NCBI GenBank assembly: GCA_021158895.1
Contig: JAGGSW010000046.1
Span: 1-28,393, forward strand
Direction of reading: 5' to 3'
Length of the DNA: 28,393 nucleotides
Source: Candidatus Odinarchaeota archaeon
GTDB lineage: Archaea; Asgardarchaeota; Baldrarchaeia; Baldrarchaeales; DXJG01
The position numbers and the translations under genes are program-made. Below, in pieces: positions 2 to 23,698 of the stretch. The notes under the pieces were generated by a model, which was not told the origin of the DNA, did not search any database, and worked only from the letters and a program-made list of their open reading frames with translations. Position 1 is the first letter of the stretch; every line of letters starts with the position of its first letter.

Positions 2-1141
2 ATCATCGTAGGACATCAAAAAGAACAAATAACCAAATATTTCGGAGATGGAAGCAAACTAAACCTAAAAATAACCTACAAAGAACAAAAGGAACCCCTA
101 GGAACAGCCCACGCCACCAGCATAGCCGAAGACTTCGTAGACAACGAAAACTTTCTACTGATCTACGGAGACGTTCTAACAAGCAAACAAAACTACCCTA
201 AAATAATAGAATTCTTCAACAAAGAATCCCCCTCAACCCTCATCACCACATACAAGGTAAAAGACGCATCACTCTACGGCATCATAAAAACAAAAAACAA
301 CCAAGTCACAGAAATCATAGAAAAACCAGACCCAACAGAAGCAAAAAACCAGCAAATAAACGCGGGAATATACATATTCACACCCAAAATCTTCAAAGCA
401 ATAAAACAAACCAAAAAATCAAAAAGAGGAGAATATGAACTAACAGACTCCATACAGCAACTAATCAAACAAGACGAAAACATATTAGCATATGAACTAG
501 AAGACTGGTGGATAGACATAGGCACCCCATGGGATCTACTCGACGCAAACAAACTACTACTAGAAGAAACAAAACTAGAAATAAAAGGAAAAATAGAAGA
601 AGGAGCAAAAATCATAGGACCAGTAGGAATAGGAGAAAACACCATAATCAGATCAGGAAGCTACATAATAGGCCCAACCCTAATAGGAAAAAACTGCGAT
701 ATCGGACCAAACTGCTTCATAAGACCCCACACATACATAGGAAACCACTGCAGAATAGGAAACGCCTGCGAAATAAAAAACAGCATAATACTTGACCACA
801 CCCACATAGCCCACCTATCCTACGTAGGAGACAGCATAATAGGACAAAACGTAAACTTCGGAGCCGGAACCATAACAGCAAACCTCAGACTAGACGAAAA
901 AACAATAAAAATGACAATAAAAGGAAAAAGAATAGACACCGGAAGAAGAAAACTCGGAGCAATCATCGGAGACAACGTAAAAACAGGAATCGGATGCATG
1001 CTAATGCCAGGAATAAAAATAGGCCAAAACTCCCTAATAGGACCAAACACAACCATAAACAAAGACATCCCACCAAACACCATCACAACAACAAAACCCC
1101 AAAACACAACAAAACCACTACAACCCCAACCAAAAAAATAA
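2..1141 (+). CDS. Sugar-1-phosphate nucleotidylyltransferase fused to a left-handed beta-helix acetyltransferase domain (archaeal GlmU/ST0452-like); 5' end outside the window
   Basis: The frame is open from the window edge to TAA at 1139..1141. It has no in-window ATG start, so the ORF track shows only its tail (911..1141). Translation contains KEPLGTAHA, EKPDPTEAKNQQINAGIYIF and WWIDIGTPWDLLDAN (nucleotidyltransferase fold). Hexapeptide repeats follow: IGENTIIRSGSYIIGPTLIGKNCDIGPNCFIRPHTYIGNHCRIGNACEIKNSII. The C-terminal tail TITTTKPQNTTKPLQPQPKK is low-complexity and runs into the A/C tract. Confidence 0.85.
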   Translation: MIVGHQKEQITKYFGDGSKLNLKITYKEQKEPLGTAHATSIAEDFVDNENFLLIYGDVLTSKQNYPKIIEFFNKESPSTLITTYKVKDASLYGIIKTKNNQVTEIIEKPDPTEAKNQQINAGIYIFTPKIFKAIKQTKKSKRGEYELTDSIQQLIKQDENILAYELEDWWIDIGTPWDLLDANKLLLEETKLEIKGKIEEGAKIIGPVGIGENTIIRSGSYIIGPTLIGKNCDIGPNCFIRPHTYIGNHCRIGNACEIKNSIILDHTHIAHLSYVGDSIIGQNVNFGAGTITANLRLDEKTIKMTIKGKRIDTGRRKLGAIIGDNVKTGIGCMLMPGIKIGQNSLIGPNTTINKDIPPNTITTTKPQNTTKPLQPQPKK

Positions 1142-1283
1142 AAACCCAAAAACAAAACAACCCATAGAACACAACCACACACAACCCTTAAAAACCAAAA
1201 CACCACAAACAAAAACAACCAACCAACAAACAAACACAAAAACAAACCCGCCAAAAACAACAAAACAACAAAACAAACAACGC
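1142..1283. repeat. A+C-only low-complexity spacer, (CAAAA/ACAAA)n-like, between the CDS stop and tRNA-Gly
   Basis: Hand count gives only 3 T and 3 G in 142 nt. No T-rich TATA-like element lies within about 90 nt of the tRNA 5' end. Confidence 0.9.
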
Positions 1284-1392
1284 GCGCCCGTAGTCTAGAA
1301 ATCTGGGGATTTAAACTTCCCCGGTTGGAGAACCTGGACTAGGACGTCGGCCTGCCACGCCGAGGACCCGGGTTCAAATCCCGGCGGGCGCA
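1284..1392 (+). tRNA. tRNA-Gly(GCC) with a ~34-nt insertion (putative non-canonical intron) in the D-loop, about 1299..1332; CCA not encoded
   Basis: Acceptor GCGCCCG (1284..1290) pairs with CGGGCGC (1385..1391), discriminator A at 1392. D-stem GTCT/GGAC. Anticodon stem TCGGC/GCCGA with loop CTGCCAC (anticodon GCC at 1354..1356). T-arm CCGGG-TTCAAAT-CCCGG. Removing 1299..1332 gives a D-loop identical to that of the uninterrupted tRNA-Gly(UCC) at 5561..5638 (AGCCTGGACTA). Confidence 0.85.
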
Positions 1393-1399
1393 TCATTGA

Positions 1400-1414
1400 T
1401 TTTCTTTTTCTTTT
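1400..1414 (+). terminator. Oligo-T tract downstream of tRNA-Gly (archaeal-type terminator candidate)
   Basis: ttttctttttctttt begins 8 nt after the tRNA discriminator base. Confidence 0.4.
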
Positions 1415-1648
1415 GATGTTTATGGGGGCGTGATCTGGGTTTCTGAACGGGAAGATGTGTGTTGTATTTTGCTAGTTTTGGAAATTTTGGGACTTTGTTT
1501 TACTGTGTTTTCTTTGGTAAATTTGTGTTTTTGTTTTTGAATTTTCTATTAAAAGGAAGGGGTCTTTTGATGGTTGTGGGTAATGAGAATATGTTATTTT
1601 GGATGGCTTTGGCGTTTTCTTGGCGAATCTTTGGGGTGTTTAGTTTTT

Positions 1649-2989
1649 TTATTGGTTTTGTGTTGTGTTTTTAATTATTTCTGGTTTTTCGATTTCTTTT
1701 AGGGTTTGTGCGGCTCTTTTGCGTACTTCCTCGCTTGGGTGTTTTAGTTTGTCTTTCAGTTTTGATATTAGGTCCTTGGTTGCCTTTGGGTCTTTCTTTA
1801 TAATTGTTTGTTTTATGAGGCGGGTTAAGTTTTCGAGGTAGTGTTCTTCGAATGTGCTGGTTTCTGTGATTACTCTGAGTGTTATTTCTTTTAGTTTGGG
1901 TATTATTTTTTCAATTGTTTTTGGCTGTTTTTCTATGAGGTCGTCGAGAACATTGTACGTTACTTCACGAGCATCGGGATCTTCATCAATTAGTAGTTCC
2001 ACTAATTTCGGTATGATGTCTTCAATTAGTTGAGGATATTTCATGCCAATGTTTCCTAAGGCTGCGGCGGCACGTTCACGAATAAGCTCATATGGATCAT
2101 TTAATGCTTTCTTAAGCTTCGGTATTAGTTCAAAAATAAGTTCTGGATGTTCGTATGCAATGGCGCGTAAAGCGGCTACTTTACATTCGTCTAAATCTTT
2201 TCCTAGTTTTTTTATTTTTTCTTTAACTAGTTTTGGATATTTTTTCCAAATGACGTGAAGGAGGTCTGCTATTGTTTCAGGGATATCTTCACTTGTGCTA
2301 AACCATTCTAATCTTTCTATTAAGTCGTCTATTTTGTCTTTGAAGACATCTATGTACTTCTCTGCAACCTTCCACAAAGCTACAAGCGCGCTATAGCAGA
2401 TGTCTTCATAGCCATATATGTGTTCCATTAATCTTGGTATTGCGTCTTTGATTAGTTCTGGATATTTTTCTCCAATATTCCCAAGGATATATGCTGCATT
2501 GATACGAACTTCGTCATTTGAATCGTGTAACAACTTTATTAGCTTCGGTATTTTATCCTTAAACAATTCTGGAAAATTCTTTGAAACGTTTTCAAGAATT
2601 TGTGACATCCAGTAACGGGCGTGTTGACATCTATTAGGAAAATAAACCTCGTCATGACTGTTACGGTCGTATATCCTATAAGGTTCCTTACATGGTCTAT
2701 TTAACTTCTTCATTAACTCTACTATCTTATCTTTAAATAGCTCTGGGAATTTTGATGAGATGCTTTCAAGAGTCCGTGCGATATAATAGCGAACTTTGCC
2801 GCTTTGGTCATCTAATTTTTCCATTAGCTTTGGTACAACCTTTTTCAGCAGGCTTAAATCCATATACTTCAAAAGGTCATATTTTATATCTTCAAGGTTG
2901 CTGGCTGCTTTTTCACGAACCTCAACACTACAATCACTCAAATCCCTCAATATTCCCTCCAATTTTCCCTCAATCTCATCTCTCCCCAT
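1649..2989 (-). CDS. HEAT-repeat protein (PBS-lyase/HEAT-like repeats), paralog of 22217..23698
   Basis: 446-aa ORF. It has recurrent D-x-x-x-x-VR-x-x-AA-x-x-LG-x-IG units (DSNDEVRINAAYILGNIG, DPYELIRERAAAALGNIG, HPSEEVRKRAAQTLKEI). These alternate with seven (K/N)(Y/F)PELxKDKIPKL-type units. It aligns end to end with the 493-aa ORF at 22217..23698. Confidence 0.85.
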   Translation of the reverse strand: MGRDEIEGKLEGILRDLSDCSVEVREKAASNLEDIKYDLLKYMDLSLLKKVVPKLMEKLDDQSGKVRYYIARTLESISSKFPELFKDKIVELMKKLNRPCKEPYRIYDRNSHDEVYFPNRCQHARYWMSQILENVSKNFPELFKDKIPKLIKLLHDSNDEVRINAAYILGNIGEKYPELIKDAIPRLMEHIYGYEDICYSALVALWKVAEKYIDVFKDKIDDLIERLEWFSTSEDIPETIADLLHVIWKKYPKLVKEKIKKLGKDLDECKVAALRAIAYEHPELIFELIPKLKKALNDPYELIRERAAAALGNIGMKYPQLIEDIIPKLVELLIDEDPDAREVTYNVLDDLIEKQPKTIEKIIPKLKEITLRVITETSTFEEHYLENLTRLIKQTIIKKDPKATKDLISKLKDKLKHPSEEVRKRAAQTLKEIEKPEIIKNTTQNQ

Positions 2990-3286
2990 TCTTCTCCACC
3001 AATGCTAGTTTATCATTTGTTATAGCATTCGCACCACAGGGGGTTTCATCACCATTCTTGCTAAAATACATTACCAGACCTCTATTTCCAAAAACTTAAA
3101 CCATCGCGTTCAGATAGATCGCACAATTCCCTCAAATATTCATGCATTGTTTCGGAATGCTCTTCTACAAGACAATTTTCTCAACTAACCTTCATCGAAA
3201 TCCTTGTTTAATGTTCTATTATTAGAAATCTCGATCTTGTCCCTTAACAGAATTATTTTTAAGGGTAATTTCCCTAAATTTCAATC

Positions 3287-4396
3287 CTAATATATTCCCG
3301 ATCCATATATCAAACTTGAAAGCCTTGATTTCTCTATTTCATATTCTCTACACCACTCAAGAATCTTCTTTCTCCACTCACGATACTTCTCCAGCCTCAT
3401 ATAATTCATATAAATCGCTTTTGAATCGAAACCATTTGATTCGACAATTACATGTCCCATACATCCTCTTACAGCCCATCTAGCCCTTCTAAAAGCCTCA
3501 ATGTTCTTTGGATCATTGTAAGGCTTTTCTTCATCAAAATCTGGAGCTATAACTTTGTCAAACCTTTTTTGTAGTGCACGCACGTTTTTGTCTGAGAAAG
3601 CGTCCAATGTATGAGGAGAAGCATATTCTCGATCATACACCTCTTCGCATCTCCAGATATCTATGCTCCATATACTAGGATCGTTTTTGAGTTCTGAAAT
3701 CAAGTTTACAGCTTCCTCAATCGCATCGACACTAAAAGAACACATCAAAACTCTTCCATTAACAATTTCACATATCAATTTTCTTGCAAGCTTATCTACG
3801 ATAGCTATCTGATCCGGAAAGTCAGTTAATGGGCATCTAAACTTTAACTCAATGTTCTTACCAGAATCCTGAATCCACCTAATTTTCTTTCCTTCTGAAT
3901 CTTCGAAAACAAATTTACTTGCAAGTCTTCCCTTCTTTACTATGTAAAAGCTCCAACCCTCAAATCTAATCAAAACTGCAACAACAAAGAGATTCTCTCT
4001 AACTTTAAACACGTCACATTTTTCATAGATGAACTCTACAACCTTTCGACGATTTTCCTTCCACATTTCTTCCAACTTTCTTATCAGATTTTCGGAAACA
4101 ACTTCACTTCCTGTCACAAAGTCTAAAATAGTGTAGTGATTTCCTAGAATTATAGGATTTACTTGATCTTCTAGGACTGTACGGTTTTCTCCGATGATTA
4201 ACTCGTCTTCAAGCGAGTATACCCTCAAATCGTCTATTATTCTCTCTATATTGAAATCGTATTTGAATAAACTTTCAATTTTTTCAGATGAATAAACTCC
4301 AGGTACTCTTCTAAGAACTTCCAAGGCTATTTCACTTAGCTTTGGATCCGGTTTAAGGTCTTTATACAAAAATTTGAAACTAGCCATTCCAACCAC
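3287..4396 (-). CDS. Hypothetical protein, 369 aa, no recognisable motif
   Basis: Long clean ORF of globular-looking composition. Its ATG (4396..4394) directly abuts the stop of the upstream ORF (4397..4399), suggesting co-translation. I found no P-loop, metal-binding or nuclease signature. Confidence 0.75.
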   Translation of the reverse strand: MVGMASFKFLYKDLKPDPKLSEIALEVLRRVPGVYSSEKIESLFKYDFNIERIIDDLRVYSLEDELIIGENRTVLEDQVNPIILGNHYTILDFVTGSEVVSENLIRKLEEMWKENRRKVVEFIYEKCDVFKVRENLFVVAVLIRFEGWSFYIVKKGRLASKFVFEDSEGKKIRWIQDSGKNIELKFRCPLTDFPDQIAIVDKLARKLICEIVNGRVLMCSFSVDAIEEAVNLISELKNDPSIWSIDIWRCEEVYDREYASPHTLDAFSDKNVRALQKRFDKVIAPDFDEEKPYNDPKNIEAFRRARWAVRGCMGHVIVESNGFDSKAIYMNYMRLEKYREWRKKILEWCREYEIEKSRLSSLIYGSGIY

Positions 4397-4843
4397 CTAT
4401 AGCATAGTTGACATCAATATATTTATTGTCAGATCCATTAACACACTGTTTACTGCCGGCATTATTGCCTTCTCTAATATTGTTCCTATTACCGTATCTG
4501 CTATTAACTCTGCTGGCCCGCCCAAAACAAAACCTACTAAGAGATCAAATATTTTCTGATTTATAAGAGGAATTTCAAAGCTTAATATCTTCTGTAACAC
4601 TGCCCCAGCTTCACGATTCACCTTTACTTTAATCCACTCGCATAACTTGTCACATAACTCATCAGTCGTATAGAATGGTATACCCAAGCTTTTTAGAACC
4701 GTTGCAAATCCTCCAATAATCATTCCTACTGCAAAGGATGAATCAGGAGTTATCGCATCCTTAATTCTACCTCCAACGCTTTTACCCCGTTCAATAATTT
4801 CCTCTTTTAAAGCCCTCACAAAGGGCTTCTTAGGATCTACCAT
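4397..4843 (-). CDS. Hydrophobic 148-aa ORF; downstream reading frame of the frameshifted gene 4397..5109
   Basis: ORF as called in the track. The same frame stays open upstream without an ATG to 5023. That upstream part encodes sequence homologous to residues ~30-80 of the 1455-aa protein. The C-terminus GGPAELIADTVIGTILEKAIMPAVN resembles the C-terminus of the 1455-aa protein. Confidence 0.7.
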   Translation of the reverse strand: MVDPKKPFVRALKEEIIERGKSVGGRIKDAITPDSSFAVGMIIGGFATVLKSLGIPFYTTDELCDKLCEWIKVKVNREAGAVLQKILSFEIPLINQKIFDLLVGFVLGGPAELIADTVIGTILEKAIMPAVNSVLMDLTINILMSTML

Positions 4844-5109
4844 CAGACTTATCCAATCTCCTTCAATATCTAGGGTACCACTGAGCGGAGATATTGTTAC
4901 CTTGCTAATAATTTGTTCTTCCCAAACTGTTACAGGTGTACTGTTCCTAAACTCTTTAAAATGTGGATCTAAACCGTTAGTCGATATCCTCGGTACACGT
5001 ATCTTTGAAAGTTTTTCTAAACTTTATTTTCACCCATAGTCATTAATCTAACTGTTGAAAGCTCCATTAAAACGATCATTAAAATTAATATTAATGATTT
5101 TACCTTCAT
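4397..5109 (-). pseudogene. Frameshift-interrupted 237-codon mini-paralog of the 1455-aa membrane protein (signal/anchor leader, conserved N-module, short C-terminal hydrophobic region)
   Basis: ATG at 5109..5107 opens MKVKSLILILMIVLMELSTVRLMTMGENKV and stops at TAG 5019..5017. Shifting -1 after AAA (5025..5023) continues as SLEKLSKIRVPRISTNGLDPHFKEFRNSTPVTVWEEQIISKVTISPLSGTLDIEGDWISL and runs into the 148-aa ORF. This is collinear with the giant protein N-terminus MKVKLQLAIVVLLILLMEFSTAGLMATGEGKILDELASYETPEIYIDSFNPNFQGFKNGTPVNILEEEIISRVTVSPLS. After the leader, 30 of 62 positions are identical without gaps (hand alignment). Confidence 0.7.
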
Positions 5110-5169: not shown

Positions 5170-5560
5170 GCTTAAGACAAGCCGATCAAAAACCTGTGGA
5201 AACATTTTACTTAAAAAGAAATTTTCGACTAAAAAATAACAAGTCAAAAACTAGCAAAACTATGGCTAATATTCATCGATACCTGCTTCTATGTCATTTC
5301 TAAATGTTGCTCTACGTAAAGGTAAAGGACAAAATTTAGGTATAACGCTGTTAATCTGATACTTTTATTGCGCATTTATATATCAACATTATTTTTGTCG
5401 GCAACATGTAGTCTAAGTGAACTTGAAACATAATTGATTGAAAAGGTTCTGCATCTCTATTCAAAATACCTTGTTTCGGCTCCATTTAACTTATCAGAAA
5501 ATTCTCTTAACTCAAAAGCTCTAAAACACAATTGAACGTGAAAACAAAGGTGAAATTTGG

Positions 5561-5638
5561 TGGTGCGGGGCCCGGGATTTGAACCCGGGTTATCGGCTTG
5601 GAAGGCCGACGTCCTAGTCCAGGCTAGACTAGCCCCGC
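5561..5638 (-). tRNA. tRNA-Gly(UCC), uninterrupted, CCA encoded
   Basis: The reverse complement reads GCGGGGC-TA-GTCT-AGCCTGGACTA-GGAC-G-TCGGC-CTTCCAA-GCCGA-TAAC-CCGGG-TTCAAAT-CCCGG-GCCCCGC-A-CCA. All four stems pair and the anticodon is TCC. Confidence 0.95.
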
Positions 5639-5980
5639 TTATTATTATTGTTTTGTGTATGGTTTTTTAGAATTTATTATGATTTTAGTTTTTTACTGTT
5701 TTTGTTTGTTGTTTAGGCTTTTTGTGGTATTTAGAGTGTTCTAGCGGCTATATTTTTATTGTGGGTTTGATTTAAAAAGTTTACGGGGATGCGATTTTAG
5801 ACAATAAAGTGGAGTTTTAAGTTGTATCGTATTTTTGGAAGTTGAATGTCTTCTTGTATGGTGTATGTATGAGGTATGGGATATTTTTCTTTATTTTGCT
5901 AGTTTATTTAATTTTTATTTTTAGTTGACTGGTTGCAGCGTGTTTGGTTTTGGTGTTGTTAGCGGTTTTTAGTCCGAAGG

Positions 5981-5989
5981 TTTATAAAA
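5981..5989 (+). promoter_or_regulatory. TATA-like box upstream of the glycosyltransferase gene
   Basis: tttataaaa lies about 35-40 nt upstream of the GTG start at 6023, followed by G-rich SD-like sequence. Confidence 0.35.
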
Positions 5990-6022
5990 TTTTGAGGTGA
6001 AATATTTGTATGGGGGGATTGT

Positions 6023-7105
6023 GTGGTGAAGGTGGCTTTAATTTCTAGTTGGGGCGCATGTTGTGGGGTGTCTATTCACGCTGAACTTATTGGAAGGGCT
6101 TTGTTGAGGCAGGGACATGAATTGATTGTTTTTGCTCCGCGGTGCTATGAAGATCGTAGGACTTATTTTTTCTTTTCGAGGGATGAGGAGTTTGTGGTGA
6201 GGAATTTTTCTTTTCTAAGGTATGGTGATCGATATAGTGATGAGGAGCTTCTTAATTCTTTCTACTTGGATCCTACGCCTATTCTTGAATCGGATTACGA
6301 TGTGTTGATGGTTGAGAAGCCAACTTCTATACCTCTTGGTAAATTGCTTGAGATTTTCCCGAAGATTAAGAGAAAGGCGAAAACTGTTGCGATTTTACAT
6401 GAAGGGATTTTACCTGTGAATCCTTATTTTTCTAAGTTTGACTGGGATGCTATTGCTGTTTTTGATGAAAGATTTAAGAAACTGTTTTCTAAGGTCTTTC
6501 CAGCGGAGAAAATTCACATTGTTCCTTTTCCCTGTCATCCGATAAAAAAAGGAGATAAAGTGAGCCTGAGGAAGGAAATTGGACTACCTGAAGATGGTAA
6601 AATCATTTTTACTTTTGGGAGGTTTTATGGAATAGAGGAAATTTTGCATATGCTTAGAAGTTTAAAAGAAGGTTACCCATCTCTTATATATTTGTGTTTA
6701 GTTAGGAATGTTGAAAGATTTATGTTGCTAAAAGAGCTTAGGCAGATGTATCCATTTATACAGGTGAGGTTGGGAAGGCCGTCTATTGAGGAATTATATA
6801 AGTATTTGGGGGCAATTGATGCTATATTATTAAACAGGGGGCATCCTAAGCATATAGCTGTGTCTAGTACTGCTCATCTATGTATGGGGTCTCTTAATCC
6901 TATTTTATGCTCGGATGTCGGCTATTTTTACACATTTGACAAAGAAGTAATAAAGTATAGGAATTTAATGGAGCTTGAAGCAAGAATAATGGATGTTTTT
7001 GAGGGAAGAGTAAGTGAAACGTTAAAGAGAGCAGAAGAATTTGTTAAACGGCATTCAGCGGATAAAATAGCAGAAGAACTACTAAAAATAGGTTTAGAAG
7101 CTTGA
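6023..7105 (+). CDS. Glycosyltransferase-like protein (GT-B fold, GT4-like)
   Basis: 360-aa ORF. The N-terminus KVALISSWGACCGVSIHAELIGRALLRQGHELIVFAP is typical of GT-B N-domains. GLPEDGKIIFTFGRF resembles the start of the GT4 C-domain. The family assignment is motif-level only. Confidence 0.6.
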   Translation: MVKVALISSWGACCGVSIHAELIGRALLRQGHELIVFAPRCYEDRRTYFFFSRDEEFVVRNFSFLRYGDRYSDEELLNSFYLDPTPILESDYDVLMVEKPTSIPLGKLLEIFPKIKRKAKTVAILHEGILPVNPYFSKFDWDAIAVFDERFKKLFSKVFPAEKIHIVPFPCHPIKKGDKVSLRKEIGLPEDGKIIFTFGRFYGIEEILHMLRSLKEGYPSLIYLCLVRNVERFMLLKELRQMYPFIQVRLGRPSIEELYKYLGAIDAILLNRGHPKHIAVSSTAHLCMGSLNPILCSDVGYFYTFDKEVIKYRNLMELEARIMDVFEGRVSETLKRAEEFVKRHSADKIAEELLKIGLEA

Positions 7106-7251: not shown

Positions 7252-8559
7252 TTATTGTAAGTCACATTTCATCCATGTTGTTCTTGTTTGTTCGGGTTCG
7301 CCAAAGGGGTTTCCAGTGTTGAGGATGTTTGTGAGAACTTTTTGGTGTGGTGGTGCTGTATAACCTGCCTTTTGTAGTCTACTTCTTAGCTTTGTTACCA
7401 TTTTCGGTATGTTAAGTTCTAAGGGACAGGCTTGGGCGCATTTTGCGCAGAGAGTGCATGTGTATGCTGGTCCTGCGGTCTTTTCCATTCCGTGTGTGAA
7501 TGCTGTATAGATGGTTCCGATTGCTCCGATGTATTTGTAGCCGTATGTCCCTCCTATTCTTTGATATACGGGGCAGACATTGAGGCAGCTGCCACATCGG
7601 ATGCATTGAAGCGTTTCTTTGAAGTCTGGGTCTTTTAGCATGTTTGTTCTTCCGTTGTCTAATAATATTAGGTGTAGTTCTTTTGGTCCGTGAACTCCTA
7701 TGGTTGTGGTGAATTCTATGTCTGCTGTTCTACTTGGACCCGTTATTAGCGATATATAACTTGTCATTGTTTGCCCTGTAGCGTAGATGGGAAGAATTCG
7801 CGTGATAATGAAGGCATCTTCGATGGTAGGGTTTATTTTTTCTATTCCCGCTATACATATGTGAACTGGAGGCGCGTTTGTTACAAATCTTCCGTTTCCC
7901 TCATTTGTCACTAGTAATATTGTTCCGGTGTCTGCTGCAATGGCATTTGCACCAGATATACCGATATCTGCTTTTATGAACTTCTCTCTTAAAAGTTTCC
8001 GGGCTGCCAATGTTATTTCGGTTATTTCTTGGGATATTTTTTCTCCTGTAAGTTTGGAGAACAGTTTTGAGATTTTTTCTCTTGGGATGTGGATGGCGGG
8101 TGCTACGAAGTGAGAGGGTTTTTCTTCGAGTTGTTGAATTATAAATTCACCTAGGTCTGTTTCTATAACTTCTATGTTGTGTTTTTCTAGATATTCGTTT
8201 AGGGAGATTTCCTCTGTGGTCATTGATTTCGATTTTACAACTAGCTTTGCTTCATGTTCTTCACAAATTTCTAAAACTTTTTTATTAGCTTCCTCTGCTG
8301 TCTTCGCTAAGTAAAAGGTCCCTCCAACAGCTTCTATGCTCTCTTTTACTTCTTTGATAAACGTTTCAAGCTGGTCAATTGCATTTTGCCTAATTTCTCT
8401 AACTCTCTTAAGAAGTTCTTCTACGTTTTTTATTTGTTTTAGAGCGTTGTCCTTGTTCTCGGTGATTTTTTGAGCTGCTTTCTTTATTGTTTTTGTGATT
8501 TCTTCTTTGGAGAGAGTTTCTATTATTGTGTTTTTGTAGATTTCATACCAGTCTTTCAT
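7252..8559 (-). CDS. lutB: LutB/YkgF-like iron-sulfur protein (LUD domain plus two 4Fe-4S ferredoxin motifs)
   Basis: CIRCGSCLNVCPVY and CTLCAKCAQACP motifs follow a LUD/DUF162-like N-terminal region. I prefer the start at M37 of the track ORF (ATG 8559..8557), because it forms an ATGA overlap with the upstream gene's stop (TGA 8558..8556). The longer 8667 start would overlap that gene by 112 nt. Confidence 0.8.
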   Translation of the reverse strand: MKDWYEIYKNTIIETLSKEEITKTIKKAAQKITENKDNALKQIKNVEELLKRVREIRQNAIDQLETFIKEVKESIEAVGGTFYLAKTAEEANKKVLEICEEHEAKLVVKSKSMTTEEISLNEYLEKHNIEVIETDLGEFIIQQLEEKPSHFVAPAIHIPREKISKLFSKLTGEKISQEITEITLAARKLLREKFIKADIGISGANAIAADTGTILLVTNEGNGRFVTNAPPVHICIAGIEKINPTIEDAFIITRILPIYATGQTMTSYISLITGPSRTADIEFTTTIGVHGPKELHLILLDNGRTNMLKDPDFKETLQCIRCGSCLNVCPVYQRIGGTYGYKYIGAIGTIYTAFTHGMEKTAGPAYTCTLCAKCAQACPLELNIPKMVTKLRSRLQKAGYTAPPHQKVLTNILNTGNPFGEPEQTRTTWMKCDLQ

Positions 8560-9287
8560 AGTTTTCCCTCTATCCTTTTTATGACGAATTCTGTGAGATC
8601 CATTACCTGTATGGGTATGTTTAGGGTTTCGGCTGTTTTTCTCATGTTGTAAACGCAAAATGGACAAGTGGTGATTAAATAGCGTGTTTTTGTTTCAAGT
8701 GCTTCTCTTAGTCTGTCTTCTGCTATTGCTGCTGTGAGTTCGCGGTACGTGCTCATTAGTCCTCCACCTGCTCCACAGCAATTGGAGTTCATATAGGAGT
8801 TTTTCATTTCGATGATTTTTGTGTTAAATGCTTTGATTACTTGACGAGGTTCCTCGAAGATTCCCATGTGCCTGCCAAGGTGGCAGGGATCATGGTAGGT
8901 AACTGTGAGAGGTGCTAGATCTGGGACTGATATTTTCCCGTTGTTTATTATGTCAGCGAGAAGTTGGGAAGTGTGGAGGACTGTGAAGGGCGGTTTAATG
9001 TCGAGGTATTCGTAGTAGTCTTTTGCAAAGGTTCTGTAGCATCCCGCGCACGATGTTGCAACCGTGTTTATGTTTTTGTTTTCAATGGTGGTTATAGTTT
9101 GTTTTGCAAGTTTTTCTACCTCTTCTAACATCCCGTATCTTATTAATACTGATCCACAGCATGTTTCGTTGCTTCCAAGCGTTTCAAAGCTTATTTGGGC
9201 ATGTTTTAAGATTTTTACCGTGCTTTTTGCTATTTCTTTTACGCGGTAGGACGCCATGCAACCGACCCAGTACAAGATTTTCCTCAT
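8556..9287 (-). CDS. lutA: LutA/YkgE-like (Fe-S) oxidoreductase with cysteine-rich CCG domains
   Basis: Contains ETCCGSVL, SCAGCYRTF, DPCHLGRH, SNCCGAGGG and TTCPFC motifs. I prefer the start at MRKILYWVGCMASYR (ATG 9287..9285). The track ORF extends to 9320. Confidence 0.8.
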   Translation of the reverse strand: MRKILYWVGCMASYRVKEIAKSTVKILKHAQISFETLGSNETCCGSVLIRYGMLEEVEKLAKQTITTIENKNINTVATSCAGCYRTFAKDYYEYLDIKPPFTVLHTSQLLADIINNGKISVPDLAPLTVTYHDPCHLGRHMGIFEEPRQVIKAFNTKIIEMKNSYMNSNCCGAGGGLMSTYRELTAAIAEDRLREALETKTRYLITTCPFCVYNMRKTAETLNIPIQVMDLTEFVIKRIEGKL

Positions 9288-10215: not shown

Positions 10216-10343
10216 GCTCTTACACCTTGTAGTTTTCAAGCGTTAAAGGTTAAATAGTTTACTGAAATCAGAAGAAATCAGCTATTCTAGCTAAAACTTC
10301 ACCAGAGAACCATTAAGATAATGAAATACCAACTTCATGCAAC

Positions 10344-11210: not shown

Positions 11211-11364
11211 TTCTTATCACCATGCTTATTACTCAAAATATGCCGAGTTCTCATATGCCACAATTCTCGTAACCAATCTAGTATCTTTCACATCTTATAT
11301 TTGGTCAATTTTCTATCAACATGATTATATTGCTATTCAAGTCTTTATTTATGGGTGTGCTTTA

Positions 11365-14707: not shown

Positions 14708-14731
14708 ACTCAAAGATCTCAGGTGACATTA

Positions 14732-15643: not shown

Positions 15644-15657
15644 TCGAGGGGATTTAA

Positions 15658-17874: not shown

Positions 17875-17904
17875 AACAGCAAACTCTAGTCAAAGGTGTA
17901 ACAG

Positions 17905-18072: not shown

Positions 18073-18085
18073 ATGAGGGGGAAAA

Positions 18086-19867: not shown

Positions 19868-20887
19868 ATGGCTATAGCTGTTACTAAGCAGGGAAGACCT
19901 GTACCTGAACACAAAGTAAAAATAGTAGACGAGTTAGTTGACCTAATCAAAAAGCATAAAGTAATAGCTTTAACAAAAATGGATACAATCGGAGCACACC
20001 AAGTTCAAAGATTAAGAAACATGTTAAGAGGCAGAGTCCTAATTAAAATGGCAAAAAACACATTAATGAAAATAGCTTTAAACAAAGCTAAAAAATTTAA
20101 ACCAGGTATTGAAAAACTTGCAGATTACATTACTGGATCATGCGCATTTGTATTTACAAACGAAAACCCGGTAAAAATAAATCTTTTCCTAGAAAGAAAT
20201 AAAGCAAAAGCTCCCGCAAAAGCCGGTCAAACAGCTCAAAACGATATAATAGTACCAGAAGGCAACACAGGACTCCCACCTGGACCAGTAATCAGCGAAC
20301 TAAACGAAGTAGGAATCCCCACCAAAGTACAATCCGGATCGGTATGGGTGGCAAAGGATACCGTCGTCTGCAAAAAGGGAGAAAAAATCTCAAGAAAACT
20401 GGCATTAGTCCTTTCAAGACTCGGCATAGAACCCATGGAAGTAGGATTATCTCTTCACGCCGCATATGACGATGGAGTTATATTTACAGAGGAAGAACTA
20501 ACAATACACCCAGAAGAAATAAAACAACAAATACAAACCGCCCACATAGAAGCATTCAATCTAGCTCTAAACGCCACAGTACCAACCACCGACACAATGC
20601 CCATACTACTGCAAAAAGCATATAGCGAAGCAATAAACCTATCGATAAACGCATGCATACCAACCAAAGAAACCCTACCATACATCCTATCGAAAGCCCA
20701 CGTCGAAGCAACAAGCCTTGCAAGCAAAATACTTGAGATAAAACCAGACGCACTGCCAAGTGAAGTAGTTACTACAGTTCCTCAACCAGTAGAGAAAGCT
20801 GAGGTAAAAGAAGAAGAGAAGAAAGAAGAAAAGAAGGAAGAGGAAGAAGAGGAAGAAGAATTAGGTTTAGGATCACTCTTCGGATAA
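19868..20887 (+). CDS. rpl10: 50S ribosomal stalk protein P0 (L10)
   Basis: N-terminal L10 domain, repeated P1-binding helices ([24 protein letters not shown] / [24 protein letters not shown]), and the acidic tail [25 protein letters not shown] prefer ATG 19868. The track start is 19859. Confidence 0.95.
20811..20858 (+). repeat. 48-nt tract in the P0 tail identical to 21134..21181 in the P1 tail
   Basis: aagaagagaagaaagaagaaaagaaggaagaggaagaagaggaagaag is identical in both genes by hand comparison. The last 14 nt of both genes (cactcttcggataa) are also identical. Confidence 0.9.
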
Positions 20888-20904
20888 TTTCGGAGGTGAA
20901 AAAT

Positions 20905-21210
<306 letters not shown>

Positions 21211-21322
21211 CAAATGAAACCAAAACACATCAAAAACACTCACGCAAACACCACCAGAACACAAACAAAACAAGAAAACTAGAAAGTTATTTCCCCATTC
21301 TATATTTTACAAGGAGAAAAAC

Positions 21323-22030
21323 ATGAAAAATGAGAGAAAACTCCTAGAAGCTGCAAAAGACTACAAATACCTGCTAGAAAGAGGCTACAATAAGAAAAGC
21401 GCACTAAGATTCGTAGGAGAACGATATCTATTAAATGAAACAGAGAGACACATACTTTACAGAACAATATTCCCAGAGAAAGAAGCCACCCAAAGAAGAG
21501 AAAAACTAGTTAAAGAAAGCGAAGTAGAAAACAACAGACTAGTAGTGGACTGCTACAACGTCCTAATAACCGTAGAAACCATGCTAAAAAACGGCATCAT
21601 ATTAAAAGCAGACAACGGATACATAAGAGACATCTCAGCAATCTTCAGAAAATACAAAATAACAAACCTAACAGAAAAAGCCCTAAACCTAATCATACAA
21701 GCCATCAAAAACCTAAAACCAGCAGAAGCAATCTTCATACTAGACCAACCCATCAGCAAAAGCGGAGAACTCGCAGCAAAAATAAGAAACCTCCTACAAA
21801 AACACAACATAAAAGGAACCGCAAAAACAACAAAACACCCAGACAAAGAACTAACCCAAACCCCAGGAATAATAGCCACAAGCGACACCATAATATTAGA
21901 CAAAGTCAAAAAAACCTTCGACCTACCAGCCTACATCTTTAAAAAACATTTTAAAAATAAAACAAAAATAATAAAACCAAAACACATAAACCTAAACCAA
22001 AAACACAAACAAAAAATCCCACACAAATAA
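21323..22030 (+). CDS. Conserved archaeal hypothetical protein, probably DUF434 family (N-terminal) with an uncharacterised C-terminal domain
   Basis: 235-aa ORF. The N-terminus LLEAAKDYKYLLERGYNKKSALRFVGERYLLNETERHILYRTI matches my recollection of the DUF434 pattern; this is not verified by search. The C-terminal tail KKHFKNKTKIIKPKHINLNQKHKQKIPHK is low-complexity, and the stop lies 10 nt before tRNA-Arg. Confidence 0.6.
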   Translation: MKNERKLLEAAKDYKYLLERGYNKKSALRFVGERYLLNETERHILYRTIFPEKEATQRREKLVKESEVENNRLVVDCYNVLITVETMLKNGIILKADNGYIRDISAIFRKYKITNLTEKALNLIIQAIKNLKPAEAIFILDQPISKSGELAAKIRNLLQKHNIKGTAKTTKHPDKELTQTPGIIATSDTIILDKVKKTFDLPAYIFKKHFKNKTKIIKPKHINLNQKHKQKIPHK

Positions 22031-22040
22031 CCACTAAAAC

Positions 22041-22168
<128 letters not shown>

Positions 22169-22216
22169 ATGACTTTTTGTTTGGAGTGGGTTGTTTGTGT
22201 TTGTTGTTTTGGTGTT

Positions 22217-23698
22217 TTATTTTTGTTTTTGTGTGTTGTTGATTTTTTCAAGTATTAGTTTGATTTTTCTGTGGGTTTCGTTGTCGGTTTTGTTGAGTTT
22301 GTTGAGGAGTGGGGTTATTTTGTTGAGTGTTTCTGGTTTTGTGGTGGTGATTGTTTTTAGGAGGTTGGCTATTTTTGTGATGTGGTGTTTGCTGTATTTT
22401 TTGTTGGTGAGGAGTTTTGGTAGTATTTGAAGGAGTTTTGGTAGTATTTTGCTGATGGTTTGGGGGTGTTTTTTGATGAGGATTGTTAGGTTGTCGCTTA
22501 GGTTTTCGTAGACTTCTTCGTATGGGTGGGTGAGGTATTCTGTTATTTTGGGTAGTGTGTCTTCGATTAGCTGTGGGTAGTCTATTCCTATGTATAGTAG
22601 TGTTAGTGCGGCTGATGTGCTGAGTTCTTGGTAGGTTTCGTTATAGGTTTCGTTGTATAAGTTTTCTTTGAGTTTTGGGGTTAGTTTTAGAACCATCTTG
22701 GAGGATTTGAGGGCGAGCCACTCGATGGTTTCAATGGTGTATTCGTTTAGTTTGTCCCAAATTTTTTCTATTTTTTCTTCTACCTGTTTCGGATATTTTT
22801 TCCAAACTACGTGTATTATGTCTATAAGTAGTTCAGCGGTGTCCCAGTCAGTGAGGGAGTCCATTAAGGCTTCAAATAGCAAGTCTATTTCTTCTTTCAG
22901 TATATCAACGTTATTTTCTGCATGGTTCCATAGGATAGATGCTGCTTTATAACGAATGGGATCATGTCTTAGACAAGTCACCAAGTCTCGGGTTATGTTT
23001 TTAATTGTTTCAGGCTTTCTACTTCCGATGTTTTCGATTATTTCTAATGCTATGAGGATAACTTCGTCATTTGAGTCATGTAGAAGTTTTGCTAAGTCGG
23101 ATATCCTGTTATCGAATAATTCTGGGTATTTTTTTGAGACTTCTAATATTGCCTCAGCTATTGCTGTACGAGCATGTTGACATCTATTTGGGAAGCCTGC
23201 AAACTCGTCGTGTGGTAAATCATCTAGGTTGTAAGGGTCTTTGCAGGGTCTACTGAGTTTTAGAAAAAGTATGTCGACTTTATCTTTGAATACTTCTGGC
23301 CGTTTAGCCGCTAAACTTGAAACAACTGTTGCTAAATGTTCGTAAACTCTATCATTTCTCTCCTCCAGTCTCCCAAGAAGTCTTCTAACAGCGAACTCAA
23401 ATTTCTTCTGACCCATATTGGAGATTTCGTCCACGATCTGTTGGAGAGTTTCTGCAATATGTTCCCTAATCTTATCACTTGGATCGTTCAACTTGTCAAT
23501 GAATCTCAGTATAGCCCACTCAAGCCTTTCGCCTTTCAAACACTTAATTTTTTCGGCGAATTCTTTTACTCGATCTTTGATTACAATTTCGCGATAATCA
23601 ATACTAGAGTCGTTAAGTTCCCGAATAATGTCCTTAATAATATTAAAGGTAGGTTCTTCTCTGGATTTGTTCTTTGAGTTTCCTTGGTTCAACACCAT
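22217..23698 (-). CDS. HEAT-repeat protein, paralog of 1649..2989
   Basis: 493-aa ORF. It shares blocks with the 446-aa paralog: RPCKDPY...HDE...FPNRCQHAR, KKYPELF, LAKLLHDSNDEV, WKKYPKQVEEKIEKI, IGIDYPQLIEDTLPKI, LIKKHPQTISKILPKL. It carries one extra repeat relative to the paralog. Confidence 0.85.
   Translation of the reverse strand: MVLNQGNSKNKSREEPTFNIIKDIIRELNDSSIDYREIVIKDRVKEFAEKIKCLKGERLEWAILRFIDKLNDPSDKIREHIAETLQQIVDEISNMGQKKFEFAVRRLLGRLEERNDRVYEHLATVVSSLAAKRPEVFKDKVDILFLKLSRPCKDPYNLDDLPHDEFAGFPNRCQHARTAIAEAILEVSKKYPELFDNRISDLAKLLHDSNDEVILIALEIIENIGSRKPETIKNITRDLVTCLRHDPIRYKAASILWNHAENNVDILKEEIDLLFEALMDSLTDWDTAELLIDIIHVVWKKYPKQVEEKIEKIWDKLNEYTIETIEWLALKSSKMVLKLTPKLKENLYNETYNETYQELSTSAALTLLYIGIDYPQLIEDTLPKITEYLTHPYEEVYENLSDNLTILIKKHPQTISKILPKLLQILPKLLTNKKYSKHHITKIANLLKTITTTKPETLNKITPLLNKLNKTDNETHRKIKLILEKINNTQKQK

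What the first reader, a model, noticed from the sequence alone, without database searches (positions are those of the whole stretch)
1142..1700. Abrupt A+C to G+T strand-composition flip centred on a tRNA gene, seen at all three tRNAs
Upstream of tRNA-Gly(GCC) the + strand is almost pure A+C. The 142-nt spacer has 3 T and 3 G, and nt 61..120 count A29 C19 G8 T4. Immediately downstream it becomes G+T-rich. The same flip occurs at tRNA-Arg. There the A/C-rich stretch 21211..22040 is followed by nt 22261..22380, which count A11 C5 G42 T62. To the right of tRNA-Gly(UCC), nt 5641..5760 count A20 C5 G23 T72. Its left flank is only weakly biased: nt 5401..5520 count A41 C23 G16 T40. On both sides of a tRNA, the strand read 5' to 3' away from the tRNA is G+T-rich, and the bias decays over about 1-4 kb. 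Several proteins acquire K/N/T/Q/P/H-rich C-terminal tails where they run into these tracts. G+T enrichment is the classical signature of C and A deamination on a strand that spends time single-stranded, as on the bacterial lagging-strand template or the mitochondrial H strand. Three origin-like flips in 28 kb cannot be replication origins, so the cause must be local. Candidates are R-loop or transcription-linked exposure at tRNA genes, rearrangement breakpoints, or an unknown process. A side effect is that tRNA leaders are A/C-only and trailers G/U-only, so leader and trailer are compositionally complementary.
Basis: partly seen in the sequence, partly recalled or inferred. Interest (0 to 1): 0.7.

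Follow-up and report, generated by a model that had tools for sequence, protein, structure and literature searches.

The report
Strand-composition flips anchored at archaeal tRNA genes
In this heat-loving Asgard archaeon (class Baldrarchaeia), the DNA next to tRNA genes is pushed to almost pure A+C on one strand, the bias switches strand exactly at the tRNA, and it looks like an undescribed local mutation process rather than an assembly error, a replication origin or ordinary codon usage.

Summary
The flip occurs at all three tRNA genes: tRNA-Gly(GCC) 1284-1392, tRNA-Gly(UCC) 5561-5638 and tRNA-Arg(UCU) 22041-22165. Third codon positions next to the tRNAs reach 96-100% A/C-ending, or G/T-ending on the other strand.

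The junction at tRNA-Arg is identical in independent assemblies. The pattern recurs at 19 of 19 tRNA junctions in Baldrarchaeial loci from several genomes (mean jump 0.60). At 127 gene junctions without a tRNA the mean jump is 0.01 (p = 3e-11). Control tRNAs from other archaea show almost nothing.

The bias has the marks of mutation. It consists of transitions, is strongest at silent sites and in spacers, reshapes protein C-termini, and has eroded a tRNA promoter. It is stronger upstream of the tRNA than downstream. The two strongest flips sit exactly where conserved gene arrays meet hypervariable islands.

Its polarity is the one produced by polymerases moving away from the tRNA. I infer, but have not shown, recurrent outward DNA synthesis from tRNA genes, by fork restart or R-loop priming, with heat-driven deamination of the exposed strand. 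No classical origin features are present.

A weaker 5'-to-3' codon gradient within genes coexists with the flips and is a separate effect.

I found no prior description. Interest is high; the mechanism is unproven.

The parts
2..1141 (+). 3' part of a sugar-nucleotidyltransferase gene (NTP_transferase + hexapeptide repeats), the last gene of a co-directional array at least 9 kb long. Its codon third positions are 94% A/C and it ends in the tail ...TTKPLQPQPKK.
   Evidence: Pfam; third-position keto skew -0.88; tail K/N/T/Q/P/H fraction 0.83; 98-100% identical to relative L097
1142..1283 (+). Leader spacer that is almost pure A/C (A88 C48 G3 T3). It has no T-rich promoter-like element.
   Evidence: (K = -0.90)
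1284..1392 (+). tRNA-Gly(GCC) with a 34-nt intron in the D-loop (1299-1332). This is the centre of flip 1 and the left edge of a hypervariable island.
   Evidence: ARAGORN calls tRNA-Gly(gcc) on the spliced sequence; identity to L097 falls from 97-100% to 58% across it
1393..1648 (+). G/T-rich trailer spacer (K = +0.54), with oligo-T tracts on the + strand.
1649..2989 (-). HEAT-repeat protein A, convergent on the tRNA. The last 100 or so codons have third-position skew +0.76 to +0.88 on the + strand, then the skew drops abruptly near 1950.
   Evidence: paralogue of 22217-23695 (38% identity)
5561..5638 (-). tRNA-Gly(UCC) with an encoded CCA, the centre of flip 2. Only its upstream side, to the right, is biased.
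   Evidence: it shares a 52-nt, 92% identical inverted repeat with tRNA-Gly(GCC)
5639..6025 (+). G/T-rich spacer (K = +0.50) upstream of tRNA-Gly(UCC), which is also the 5' region of the divergent glycosyltransferase gene.
6026..7105 (+). GT4-like glycosyltransferase whose coding strand is G/T-ending at its 5' end (+0.61) and fades to +0.17. This shows that the bias follows position relative to the tRNA, not gene orientation.
19868..22030 (+). End of the ribosomal-protein array (P0, P1, DUF434 protein). Third-position skew falls from -0.3 to -1.0 approaching tRNA-Arg, and the DUF434 protein carries a lineage-specific tail of 14-20 residues.
22041..22165 (+). tRNA-Arg(UCU) with two introns (D region and anticodon loop), the centre of flip 3 and the edge of a second variable island.
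   Evidence: Rfam 49.8 bits; Arg(tct) after intron removal; identity to L101 is 93-100% on the left and about 65% on the right
22166..22216 (+). G/T-rich trailer spacer (K = +0.73).
22217..23695 (-). HEAT-repeat protein B, convergent on tRNA-Arg. The last 150 or so codons have third-position skew +0.92 to +0.96 on the + strand.

Best explanation
SHOWN. This is a genuine, lineage-specific, mutation-type strand asymmetry anchored at tRNA genes. On either side of a tRNA, the strand that runs 5'->3' away from it has gained G and T. The net changes are C>T and A>G on that strand, which read as G>A and T>C on its complement. The bias is near saturation at silent sites and in spacers and decays over roughly 0.5-2 kb. 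It is about twice as strong upstream of the tRNA as downstream. The strongest cases lie on junctions between conserved gene arrays and hypervariable islands.

INFERRED. The keto-rich strand is the one repeatedly left single-stranded, and in this thermophile it is deaminated by heat (C to U, A to hypoxanthine). The exposure comes from DNA synthesis that repeatedly starts or restarts at tRNA genes and moves outward. Two routes are possible. One is recombination-dependent restart of replication forks that stall or collapse at heavily transcribed tRNA genes, which is worst for head-on forks and would explain the upstream excess. The other is R-loop-primed initiation.

Side effects follow from the composition. 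T-free sense strands lose stop codons and oligo-T terminators, which gives K/N/T/Q/P/H tails, read-through into the tRNA, and eroded tRNA promoters.
For: Reality and specificity:
- The base counts reproduce.
- The junction is identical in independent assemblies.
- 19 of 19 tRNA junctions in Baldrarchaeial loci jump upward, with mean 0.60. At 127 non-tRNA junctions the mean is 0.01 (Mann-Whitney p = 3e-11).
- Control tRNAs from other archaea give +0.05 and +0.11.

Mutational nature:
- Third positions reach -1.00 or +0.96, while positions 1 and 2 are much weaker.
- Only tRNA-adjacent non-coding spacers are strongly skewed.
- Purine content stays constant while A-T and G-C skews move in opposite directions.
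- Transitions outnumber transversions about 14:1 between close strains.
- C-terminal tails and extensions have appeared.
- The TATA-like box ATAAATATAAAT upstream of tRNA-Arg in relatives reads ATAAACCTAAAC here.

Independence from gene orientation: the divergent GT4-like gene has a G/T-rich coding strand.

Polarity and asymmetry: upstream -0.46 against downstream +0.22, and 0.42 against 0.20 over 400 nt (p = 6e-4).

Link to recombination: sequence identity to close relatives collapses exactly at tRNA-Gly(GCC) and tRNA-Arg. Gene order is also rearranged at the tRNA-Gly genes in relative MAG_95.

Against long outward transcription: 9-16 T5+ tracts per 800 nt lie on outward-reading strands, against 0-2 on inward-reading strands, and the leaders are T-free.

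Context: Baldrarchaeia have an unusual replisome with no PolD catalytic subunit and a Pol-delta-like PolB3-DP1 complex (PMC12680538). Long-lived nascent single-stranded DNA in break-induced replication is a known source of strand-coordinated mutation (PMC9262586 and PMC6786661).
Against: - No direct evidence exists for fork arrest, restart or initiation at these sites. The mechanism rests on polarity and geometry alone.
- If forks really moved outward on average, highly expressed ribosomal-protein arrays would be replicated head-on, which is unusual.
- The polarised substitution test was inconclusive, because parsimony is biased by parallel change.
- The 19 tRNA junctions are not independent. 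They cover about five tRNA identities in related genomes.
- One Baldrarchaeial genome (L102) shows almost no flip at tRNA-Thr, so high tRNA transcription alone is not sufficient.
- By my reading of the gene maps, downstream bias appears mainly where a convergent gene abuts the tRNA, so part of the signal may belong to the separate within-gene gradient.
- Only about 46 kb of this genome could be read, so flips at sites without a tRNA elsewhere in it are not excluded.
Confidence: 0.4

Rival explanations
1. Transcription-associated mutagenesis. tRNA genes are transcribed very heavily. Read-through downstream and divergent antisense transcription upstream would expose the non-template strand on each side, and that strand would be deaminated.
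For: - The effect is tRNA-specific.
- The downstream sign matches non-template deamination.
- The 5' flank exceeds the 3' flank, as reported for eukaryotic tRNA loci (PMC6130373).
- Several genes that start a transcription unit have G/T-rich coding 5' ends (Rpr2 +0.61, GT4-like +0.61, L084 up to +0.80).
Against: - The upstream sign needs antisense transcripts at least as abundant as the tRNA itself.
- The two strongest cases have T-free leaders with no TATA-like box, and the box seen in relatives is eroded.
- Outward-reading strands carry 9-16 oligo-T tracts per 800 nt. From established knowledge, such tracts terminate archaeal RNA polymerase.
- Sense transcription of the upstream arrays predicts the opposite sign.
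- The range, hundreds to thousands of nt, far exceeds the plus or minus 40 nt seen in eukaryotes.
Confidence: 0.2
2. By-product of gene-array polarity. Coding strands drift from G/T-ending to A/C-ending codons along genes and co-directional arrays, through codon selection or a process linked to transcription units. On this view tRNAs merely sit at array ends.
For: - 31 of 42 genes show the 5'->3' decline (p = 5.5e-4).
- Arrays fall by about 0.1-0.17 per kb.
- An unrelated Thermoproteota MAG (L084) shows a stronger version at junctions without a tRNA.
- By my reading of the gene maps, downstream flanks are skewed mainly when a convergent gene is present.
Against: - Non-tRNA junctions, including 13 convergent ones, show no systematic jump (mean 0.01-0.07, maximum 0.39).
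- Strongly skewed non-coding spacers lie next to, or within about 2 kb upstream of, tRNAs; the extremes (|K| of 0.5 or more) are all within about 1 kb.
- The divergent GT4-like 5' region upstream of tRNA-Gly(UCC) is strongly skewed in two species.
- In MAG_95 the same array end abuts a different tRNA and carries a 780-nt A/C-rich spacer.
Confidence: 0.15
3. Selection on RNA or on transcription. Candidate benefits are structure-free A/C-only 3' regions and leaders, leader-trailer pairing for precursor processing, or 'one-way' terminator-rich flanks that insulate the tRNA.
For: - A/C-only RNA cannot base-pair with itself.
- T5+ tracts are strongly directional.
- Leader and trailer are complementary in composition.
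Against: - Leader-trailer duplex energy is no better than for shuffled leaders (z = +0.49, -1.04, -0.14), and the leader of one tRNA pairs equally well with the trailer of another.
- The bias saturates third positions over 1.3 kb of coding sequence and degrades protein termini and a promoter, which looks like a cost rather than a benefit.
- A few T-tracts would be enough for termination.
Confidence: 0.1
4. Classical replication origins, or an assembly or mosaic artefact.
For: The skew polarity equals that at bacterial and archaeal origins. One scaffold has an N-gap just after the tRNA, and one short contig ends inside it.
Against: - There are three flips in 28 kb, ORB-like motifs are not enriched (4 found, 10 expected), and no orc1/cdc6 gene lies in 46 kb.
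- The junction is identical in four independently assembled contigs from three metagenomes.
- The pattern is conserved across several genomes.
Confidence: 0.03

Closest known systems
Transcription-associated mutagenesis at eukaryotic tRNA loci (Thornlow et al. 2018, PMC6130373)
   Same: Highly transcribed tRNA genes impose a local mutational footprint on their flanks while the tRNA itself is conserved. The 5' flank is affected more than the 3' flank. Those authors also raise collisions with replication forks as a possible cause.
   Different: There the footprint is raised divergence within about 40 nt of the tRNA, with no compositional saturation and no change of strand. Here it spans 0.5-2 kb, drives silent sites to 96-100% A/C, and reverses strand at the tRNA.
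Replication-associated strand skew at origins (bacterial and archaeal GC/keto skew; human 'N-domain' skew jumps). Cited from general knowledge, not from a paper read here.
   Same: The polarity is the same: an upward jump of G+T on the strand read away from the site, with a gradual decline between sites. Between tRNA-Gly(UCC) and tRNA-Arg, third-position skew runs from about +0.6 to -1.0 and crosses zero near the midpoint.
   Different: Spacing is 4-17 kb. Origin motifs and an initiator gene are absent. The amplitude is far greater than any replication skew in the 79 control loci. The two sides are unequal with respect to tRNA orientation.
Vertebrate mitochondrial H-strand asymmetry (strand-displacement model). 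Cited from general knowledge.
   Same: It involves the same pair of transitions (C>T and A>G on the exposed strand). The gradient follows time spent single-stranded, and silent sites are nearly free of G.
   Different: That case concerns a whole small genome with one pair of origins. This one is a chromosomal, kb-scale, two-sided pattern repeated at many tRNA genes.
Strand-coordinated mutation clusters from long single-stranded DNA in break-induced replication and break repair (PMC9262586, PMC6786661)
   Same: Damage to a long-lived single strand next to a recombination-initiated synthesis tract gives strand-specific base changes. The affected strand depends on the side of the initiating site, and the tracts are associated with rearrangements (compare).
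   Different: Those are single somatic or experimental events caused by enzymes or mutagens. Here the pattern is an evolutionary steady state built from countless events and filtered by selection, and no break or restart has been demonstrated.
tRNA-linked genomic islands
   Same: Variable DNA begins exactly at the tRNA gene, with conserved core on the other side.
   Different: No integrase and no duplicated tRNA 3' end are present. Island insertion alone does not explain a two-sided skew that decays with distance.

Membership tests
Archaeal replication origin (oriC) | Origin-recognition-box (ORB or mini-ORB) repeats flanking an unwinding element | tested here: not met
   The pattern TTCCAGTGGAAAC with up to 3 mismatches gives 4 matches against 10 expected, none of them at a flip. 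This tests one consensus only.
Archaeal replication origin (oriC) | Adjacent orc1/cdc6 initiator gene | tested here: not met
   No such Pfam family appears among the called genes across about 46 kb.
Archaeal replication origin (oriC) | Skew changes sign with the G+T-rich strand leading away from the site | tested here: met
Archaeal replication origin (oriC) | One to a few per chromosome | tested here: not met
   There are three flips within 28 kb, and flips occur at every tRNA examined.
Transcription-associated mutagenesis at tRNA loci | The footprint is tied to tRNA genes and is stronger on the 5' flank | tested here: met
   compare PMC6130373
Transcription-associated mutagenesis at tRNA loci | Excess C>T and A>G on the non-template (sense) strand of the transcribed stretch | tested here: inconclusive
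   The downstream sign fits. The upstream sense strand has the opposite sign, which would need antisense transcription. No RNA data are available.
Transcription-associated mutagenesis at tRNA loci | Strength scales with tRNA expression | not testable with these tools
   No expression data are available.
Recombination- or break-induced-replication-type strand-coordinated mutagenesis | The mutated strand switches across the initiating site, with the polarity of the nascent strand running 5'->3' away from it | tested here: met
   Polarity is shown. The opposite polarity, expected from 5'-3' resection, is not seen.
Recombination- or break-induced-replication-type strand-coordinated mutagenesis | Association with recombination or rearrangement junctions | tested here: met
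   Identity to close relatives collapses at tRNA-Gly(GCC) and tRNA-Arg, and gene order differs at the tRNA-Gly genes in MAG_95.
Recombination- or break-induced-replication-type strand-coordinated mutagenesis | Demonstrated break, fork collapse or migrating-bubble synthesis | not testable with these tools
   This needs replication-intermediate mapping.
tRNA-integrated mobile island | Integrase gene, and a direct repeat of the tRNA 3' end at the far boundary | tested here: not met
   No integrase is among the called genes. No repeat of a tRNA 3' end was found, only the 52-nt inverted similarity between the two tRNA-Gly genes.

The most novel reading that the evidence does not exclude
In Baldrarchaeia, Asgard archaea with a Pol-delta-like replicase and no PolD, tRNA genes serve as dispersed, sequence-independent start or restart sites for DNA replication. 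These would be R-loop-primed or recombination-dependent, so the chromosome would be copied from many closely spaced sites as in eukaryotes. The extreme skew would then be the fossil record of fork direction.
Probability: 0.15. Interest if true: 0.92.

Novelty: new variant of a known kind. Interest (0 to 1): 0.74.

Why it matters
If the reading is right, composition alone gives a kb-resolution map of where DNA is habitually unwound or copied outward in an uncultured Asgard archaeon. [quoted passage not shown]

Whatever the mechanism, the effect has practical consequences:
- It rewrites protein C-termini.
- It removes stop codons and terminators.
- It erodes tRNA promoters.
- It creates spurious ORFs on both strands.
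- It hides intron-bearing tRNAs from standard tools.
- It can mislead gene callers, binning by composition, and codon-based phylogenetics.

It is also among the strongest local mutational asymmetries I know of. G plus T reach only 3-6% at silent sites, which I judge from general knowledge to be stronger than in vertebrate mitochondria.

Tried and rejected
1. Specific leader-trailer pairing, such as a long processing helix. Duplex energies are no better than for shuffled leaders, and leaders and trailers are interchangeable between tRNAs. The inverted repeats found are low-complexity matches of about 70%.

2. Codon-usage selection alone. Non-coding spacers next to tRNAs are more extreme than codons, and a + strand gene (GT4-like) carries the opposite codon bias.

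3. 'Every gene junction flips'. I took this up seriously after seeing third-position jumps at 7150, 11250 and 23700 and in L084. Raw skew at 127 non-tRNA junctions is null.

4. Polarised substitution spectra, using window/L101 with outgroups L006 and L017, and window/L097 with outgroup L099. The counts are small, and parsimony is biased by parallel change under directional pressure, so I call this inconclusive. Only unpolarised statements are kept: the high transition-to-transversion ratio, and the window being more A/C-rich than L101 in the last 2.2 kb (31 sites against 11).

6. An attempt to reach further tRNAs of this exact species through a thiamine-phosphate kinase neighbour found another Baldrarchaeial genome (L102) with only a weak flip. 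It returned mostly other thermophiles, plus one Baldrarchaeial locus, L136.

7. Integration-site repeats of tRNA 3' ends: none found.

8. Origin motifs: not enriched. The bacterial-type promoter and terminator scan is uninformative for an archaeon.
Full report
**1. What the window is**

The genes are archaeal. They include ribosomal proteins S19e, L39e, L31e, LX, L11, L1, P0 and P1, plus eIF6, Spt5, SecE, FtsY, FtsZ and prefoldin.

The closest named genome is 'Candidatus Baldrarchaeota MAG_95', with P0 82% identical. All other archaea are at 46% or less. A HEAT-repeat homologue is labelled 'Candidatus Baldrarchaeia'.

The source is therefore an uncultured Asgard archaeon of the class Baldrarchaeia. 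It is seen in JGI and ENA metagenomes, and one relative comes from a hydrothermal vent.

**2.

Keto skew, (G+T-A-C)/N, forms a sawtooth along the window. Sharp upward jumps occur at about 1300, 5600 and 22050, with gradual declines between them.

All three jump sites are tRNA genes:
- tRNA-Gly(UCC) at 5561-5638 on the - strand.
- tRNA-Arg(UCU) at 22041-22165. Rfam scores it 49.8 bits, and the anticodon is confirmed after removing two introns.
- tRNA-Gly(GCC) at 1284-1392. ARAGORN and Rfam both miss it because of a 34-nt D-loop intron, and ARAGORN recognises it once that intron is removed.

The leader at 1142-1283 is 96% A/C (binomial p = 2e-32).

**3. It is not an artefact and not ordinary**

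- The tRNA-Arg junction is base-for-base identical in four independently assembled contigs from three metagenomes. One further scaffold has an N-gap just after the tRNA, and one short contig ends inside it.
- In 79 loci from other archaea, centred on the same ribosomal-protein gene, the largest 300-nt skew is mostly 0.13-0.4, against 0.77 here.
- The largest upward jump in those loci is mostly 0.4 or less, against 1.35 here. In this lineage upward jumps far exceed downward ones.
- For 32 tRNAs in those control loci the mean jump is +0.05 with SD 0.12.
- For 48 thermophile tRNA loci pulled from metagenomes, the mean is +0.11 and 75% are positive. That is a faint tendency of the same sign.

**4. 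The nature of the bias**

- It is concentrated at codon third positions. These reach -1.00 (all A/C) in the last 100 or so codons before tRNA-Arg and in the last 30 codons before tRNA-Gly(GCC).
- They reach +0.96 on the + strand in the convergent HEAT gene. Positions 1 and 2 are much weaker.
- Purine content stays constant while A-T skew and G-C skew move in opposite directions. The axis of change is therefore transitions.
- Between close strains, 93% or more of silent differences are transitions.
- Among non-coding spacers, the extreme values are at tRNAs: -0.90, +0.54, +0.50 and +0.73. Two further spacers within 1-2 kb upstream of tRNAs are at -0.54 and -0.38.
- Nearly all other spacers lie within about plus or minus 0.2. 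This includes the convergent and divergent spacers without a tRNA.
- The sign does not follow gene orientation. The glycosyltransferase gene at 6026-7105 on the + strand, divergent from tRNA-Gly(UCC), has a G/T-ending coding strand (+0.61 fading to +0.17). Genes that converge on tRNAs have A/C-ending coding strands.
- Proteins pay for it. The four proteins whose 3' ends face tRNAs have the highest or joint-highest K/N/T/Q/P/H content in their last 30 residues: 0.83, 0.77, 0.60 and 0.50, the last tied with LUD-Fer4.
- The DUF434 protein has gained a tail of 14-20 residues that is absent from more distant homologues. In one relative its reading frame runs into the tRNA.
- These tails follow from the sequence. 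All stop codons contain T, so an A/C-only sense strand cannot stop. A G/T-only strand cannot stop either, because all stop codons also contain A.
- The TATA-like element upstream of tRNA-Arg in relatives, ATAAATATAAAT, reads ATAAACCTAAAC here.

Taken together, these features indicate directional mutation pressure rather than adaptive design.

**5. The tRNA association is specific and conserved**

I fetched related Baldrarchaeial loci: L006, L007, L017, L097, L098, L099, L101, L102 and L136.
- Every one of the 19 tRNA junctions with enough flanking sequence jumps upward. The mean is 0.60 and the range 0.02-1.33.
- The 127 gene junctions without a tRNA average 0.01, with 52% positive and a maximum of 0.39. 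The Mann-Whitney p is 3e-11.
- The 19 are not independent. They cover tRNA-Gly(GCC), Gly(UCC), Arg(UCU), Thr(CGU) and one long-arm tRNA, in related genomes.

In the orientation of the tRNA, the sense strand upstream is A+C-rich. It measures -0.46 in the first 200 nt, -0.19 by 600-800 nt, and about -0.15 out to 2 kb. Downstream it is G+T-rich, at +0.22 and fading by about 1.2 kb.

Upstream is about twice as strong as downstream: 0.42 against 0.20 over 400 nt (p = 6e-4).

tRNA-Gly(UCC) has essentially no downstream bias in any of the three species. Comparing the gene maps, downstream bias is large where a convergent gene abuts the tRNA. It is near zero where a co-oriented gene starts there. That is my reading of those tables, not a formal test.

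**6. Flips coincide with recombination boundaries**

- Against the very close relative L097 (array proteins 95-100% identical), DNA identity is 98-100% up to tRNA-Gly(GCC). It then falls to 58-90% across the trailer and the HEAT gene. It vanishes between about 3000 and 4860 and returns to 93-100% from 4900 through tRNA-Gly(UCC) and beyond.
- Against L101, identity is 93-100% up to tRNA-Arg and about 65% immediately after it.
- In MAG_95 the ribosomal-protein and nucleotidyltransferase array abuts tRNA-Gly(UCC) instead of tRNA-Gly(GCC). Its end is still strongly A/C-rich and carries a 780-nt A/C-rich spacer.
- The two tRNA-Gly genes form a 52-nt, 92% identical inverted repeat around the variable segment. 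There are no integration-type direct repeats and no integrase.

**7. A second, weaker phenomenon**

- Within genes, and along co-directional arrays, coding-strand third positions drift from G/T-ending to A/C-ending. This holds for 31 of 42 genes (p = 5.5e-4). Arrays fall by about 0.1-0.17 per kb.
- An unrelated hot-spring Thermoproteota MAG (L084) shows this more strongly. Its genes start at +0.4 to +0.8 and end at -0.5 to -0.8, with jumps at junctions that have no tRNA.
- Across 71 control loci the effect is near zero on average, with some Thermoproteota loci in the negative tail.
- This gradient contributes to the long tails and to the 3' ends of convergent genes. It does not explain the tRNA-specific jumps or the spacer composition.

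**8. Mechanism**

The following steps are shown:
- The asymmetry consists of transitions and behaves like mutation pressure.
- It is anchored at tRNA genes.
- Its polarity is 'G+T on the strand leaving the tRNA'.
- Upstream is stronger than downstream.
- The strong cases coincide with boundaries between core and island.

The rest is inferred.

Under the standard chemistry, single-stranded DNA deaminates C to U and A to hypoxanthine, far faster at high temperature (general knowledge). The G+T-rich strand is then the exposed one.

I worked through the geometry of four possible exposure routes.

These two predict the opposite polarity to the one observed:
- 5'-3' resection at a break.
- Exposure of the lagging-strand template behind forks that stall on reaching the tRNA.

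These two predict the observed polarity:
- Outward-moving replication forks.
- Nascent strands in recombination-dependent restart.

Outward transcription also fits the sign, but it meets several obstacles:
- The leaders are T-free and show no promoter.
- Outward-reading strands carry 9-16 oligo-T tracts per 800 nt, against 0-2 on inward-reading strands.
- The arrays upstream are heavily transcribed in the sense direction, which predicts the opposite sign.

I therefore favour recurrent outward DNA synthesis from tRNA genes. This would be restart after fork arrest or collapse, or R-loop priming.

Head-on conflicts are the more damaging kind (general knowledge), and restart of a head-on fork runs into the tRNA's upstream side. 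That matches the upstream excess.

The link to recombination junctions fits too. So does the known mutability of long-lived single strands in break-induced replication (PMC9262586, PMC6786661).

Baldrarchaeia also have an atypical replisome (PMC12680538). That is context, not evidence.

My confidence in this mechanism is modest. I give it about 0.4, which includes the well-supported descriptive part.

**9. What is known**

Literature searches on strand asymmetry with tRNA genes and archaea, on Asgard genomes and skew, on Baldrarchaeia, and on transcription-associated bias in thermophiles found no description of this pattern.

The nearest relatives in concept are:
- Transcription-associated mutagenesis at eukaryotic tRNA loci, which acts within about 40 nt of the tRNA and does not change strand.
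- Replication skew at origins.
- The mitochondrial H-strand gradient.
- Recombination-associated strand-coordinated mutation clusters.

The pattern fails the tests for a classical origin and for an integrated element.

**10. Verdict**

This is a real, extreme, tRNA-anchored mutational strand asymmetry in an Asgard lineage.

Its general idea, local exposure of one strand, is reasonable, and 'rearrangement breakpoints' turns out to be a true correlate. The specific cause remains open.

I rate it a new variant of a known kind of phenomenon, and of high interest.

Noticed in passing
window 22217-28137 and 1649-2989; L097 2643-8452; L099 5603-11392; L136 1996-7272: A two-gene module, a protein of about 1450 aa with no Pfam hit followed by a HEAT-repeat or other protein of about 300-490 aa, lies convergent on three different tRNAs: Gly-GCC, Arg-UCU and, in L136, Thr-CGU. 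The HEAT family is specific to Baldrarchaeia, with only 11 members found. These look like tRNA-associated variable islands, but no integrase is present.
   Followed up: partly
window about 1300-4900: A hypervariable segment is bounded by the two tRNA-Gly genes, which form a 52-nt, 92% identical inverted repeat (1333-1384 and 5572-5623). Gene content differs from the otherwise 98-100% identical relative L097, and the arrangement is different again in MAG_95.
   Followed up: yes
window 1299-1332; 22041-22165; L017, L007, L097 and L099 tRNAs: tRNAs in this lineage carry introns at non-canonical positions (D-loop), sometimes two per gene. ARAGORN misses them, and Rfam either misses them or reports weak 'tmRNA' matches. 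The acceptor stem of tRNA-Gly(GCC) differs from L097 by paired compensatory changes (GCGCCCG/CGGGCGC against GCGGGCG/CGCCCGC).
   Followed up: partly
L084 (Thermoproteota MAG JAUQQR010000010.1) 8000-8700, 9995-11300, 14389-18141: An unrelated hot-spring archaeon shows a strong gene-by-gene sawtooth. Coding-strand third positions run from +0.4/+0.8 at gene starts to -0.5/-0.8 at gene ends, with jumps at junctions that have no tRNA. The 3' untranslated stretch after P0 is also depleted of G.
   Followed up: partly
window 820-1263 (-); L099 4283-4735 (-); L006 7517-8248: A/C-only and G/T-only tracts contain no stop codons on either strand. This produces spurious ORFs, one of which was called as a gene in a public record, and lets a real ORF run into the tRNA-Arg gene.
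   Followed up: yes
window 21980-22040 compared with L017 12088-12147 and L007 954-1013: The TATA-like element upstream of tRNA-Arg in relatives (ATAAATATAAAT) has become ATAAACCTAAAC here, and the tRNA-Gly(GCC) leader has no T for about 60 nt. These tRNAs may depend on co-transcription with the upstream array.
   Followed up: partly
window 28393 onward (L013/L001, window coordinates 28.4-38.1 kb): The next 10 kb has almost no strand skew. It encodes hypothetical, NOV_C, SACS-like and GATase proteins, and looks like recently acquired DNA that has not yet taken on the local bias.
   Followed up: partly
window 24500-25250 within gene 23770-28137: Third-position skew inside the 1455-aa gene is patchy: +0.84 lies next to -0.24 next to +0.68. 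The gene length also varies between assemblies (980 aa in L002). This suggests a mosaic or recombining gene.
   Followed up: no
L102 (GCA_037917685.1) 7930-8062 and 9803-9919: This Baldrarchaeial genome has nearly flat composition around its tRNA-Thr and a tRNA-Arg-like gene (jumps 0.19 and 0.02). The strength of the process therefore varies between related lineages, which is useful for finding the gene responsible.
   Followed up: no
upstream extension, window coordinates -5163 to -4600 (L009 17590-18153): A Ham1-type (d)ITP/XTP pyrophosphatase gene sits in the biased array. It may be a coincidence, but it concerns hypoxanthine, one of the two deamination products invoked.
   Followed up: no
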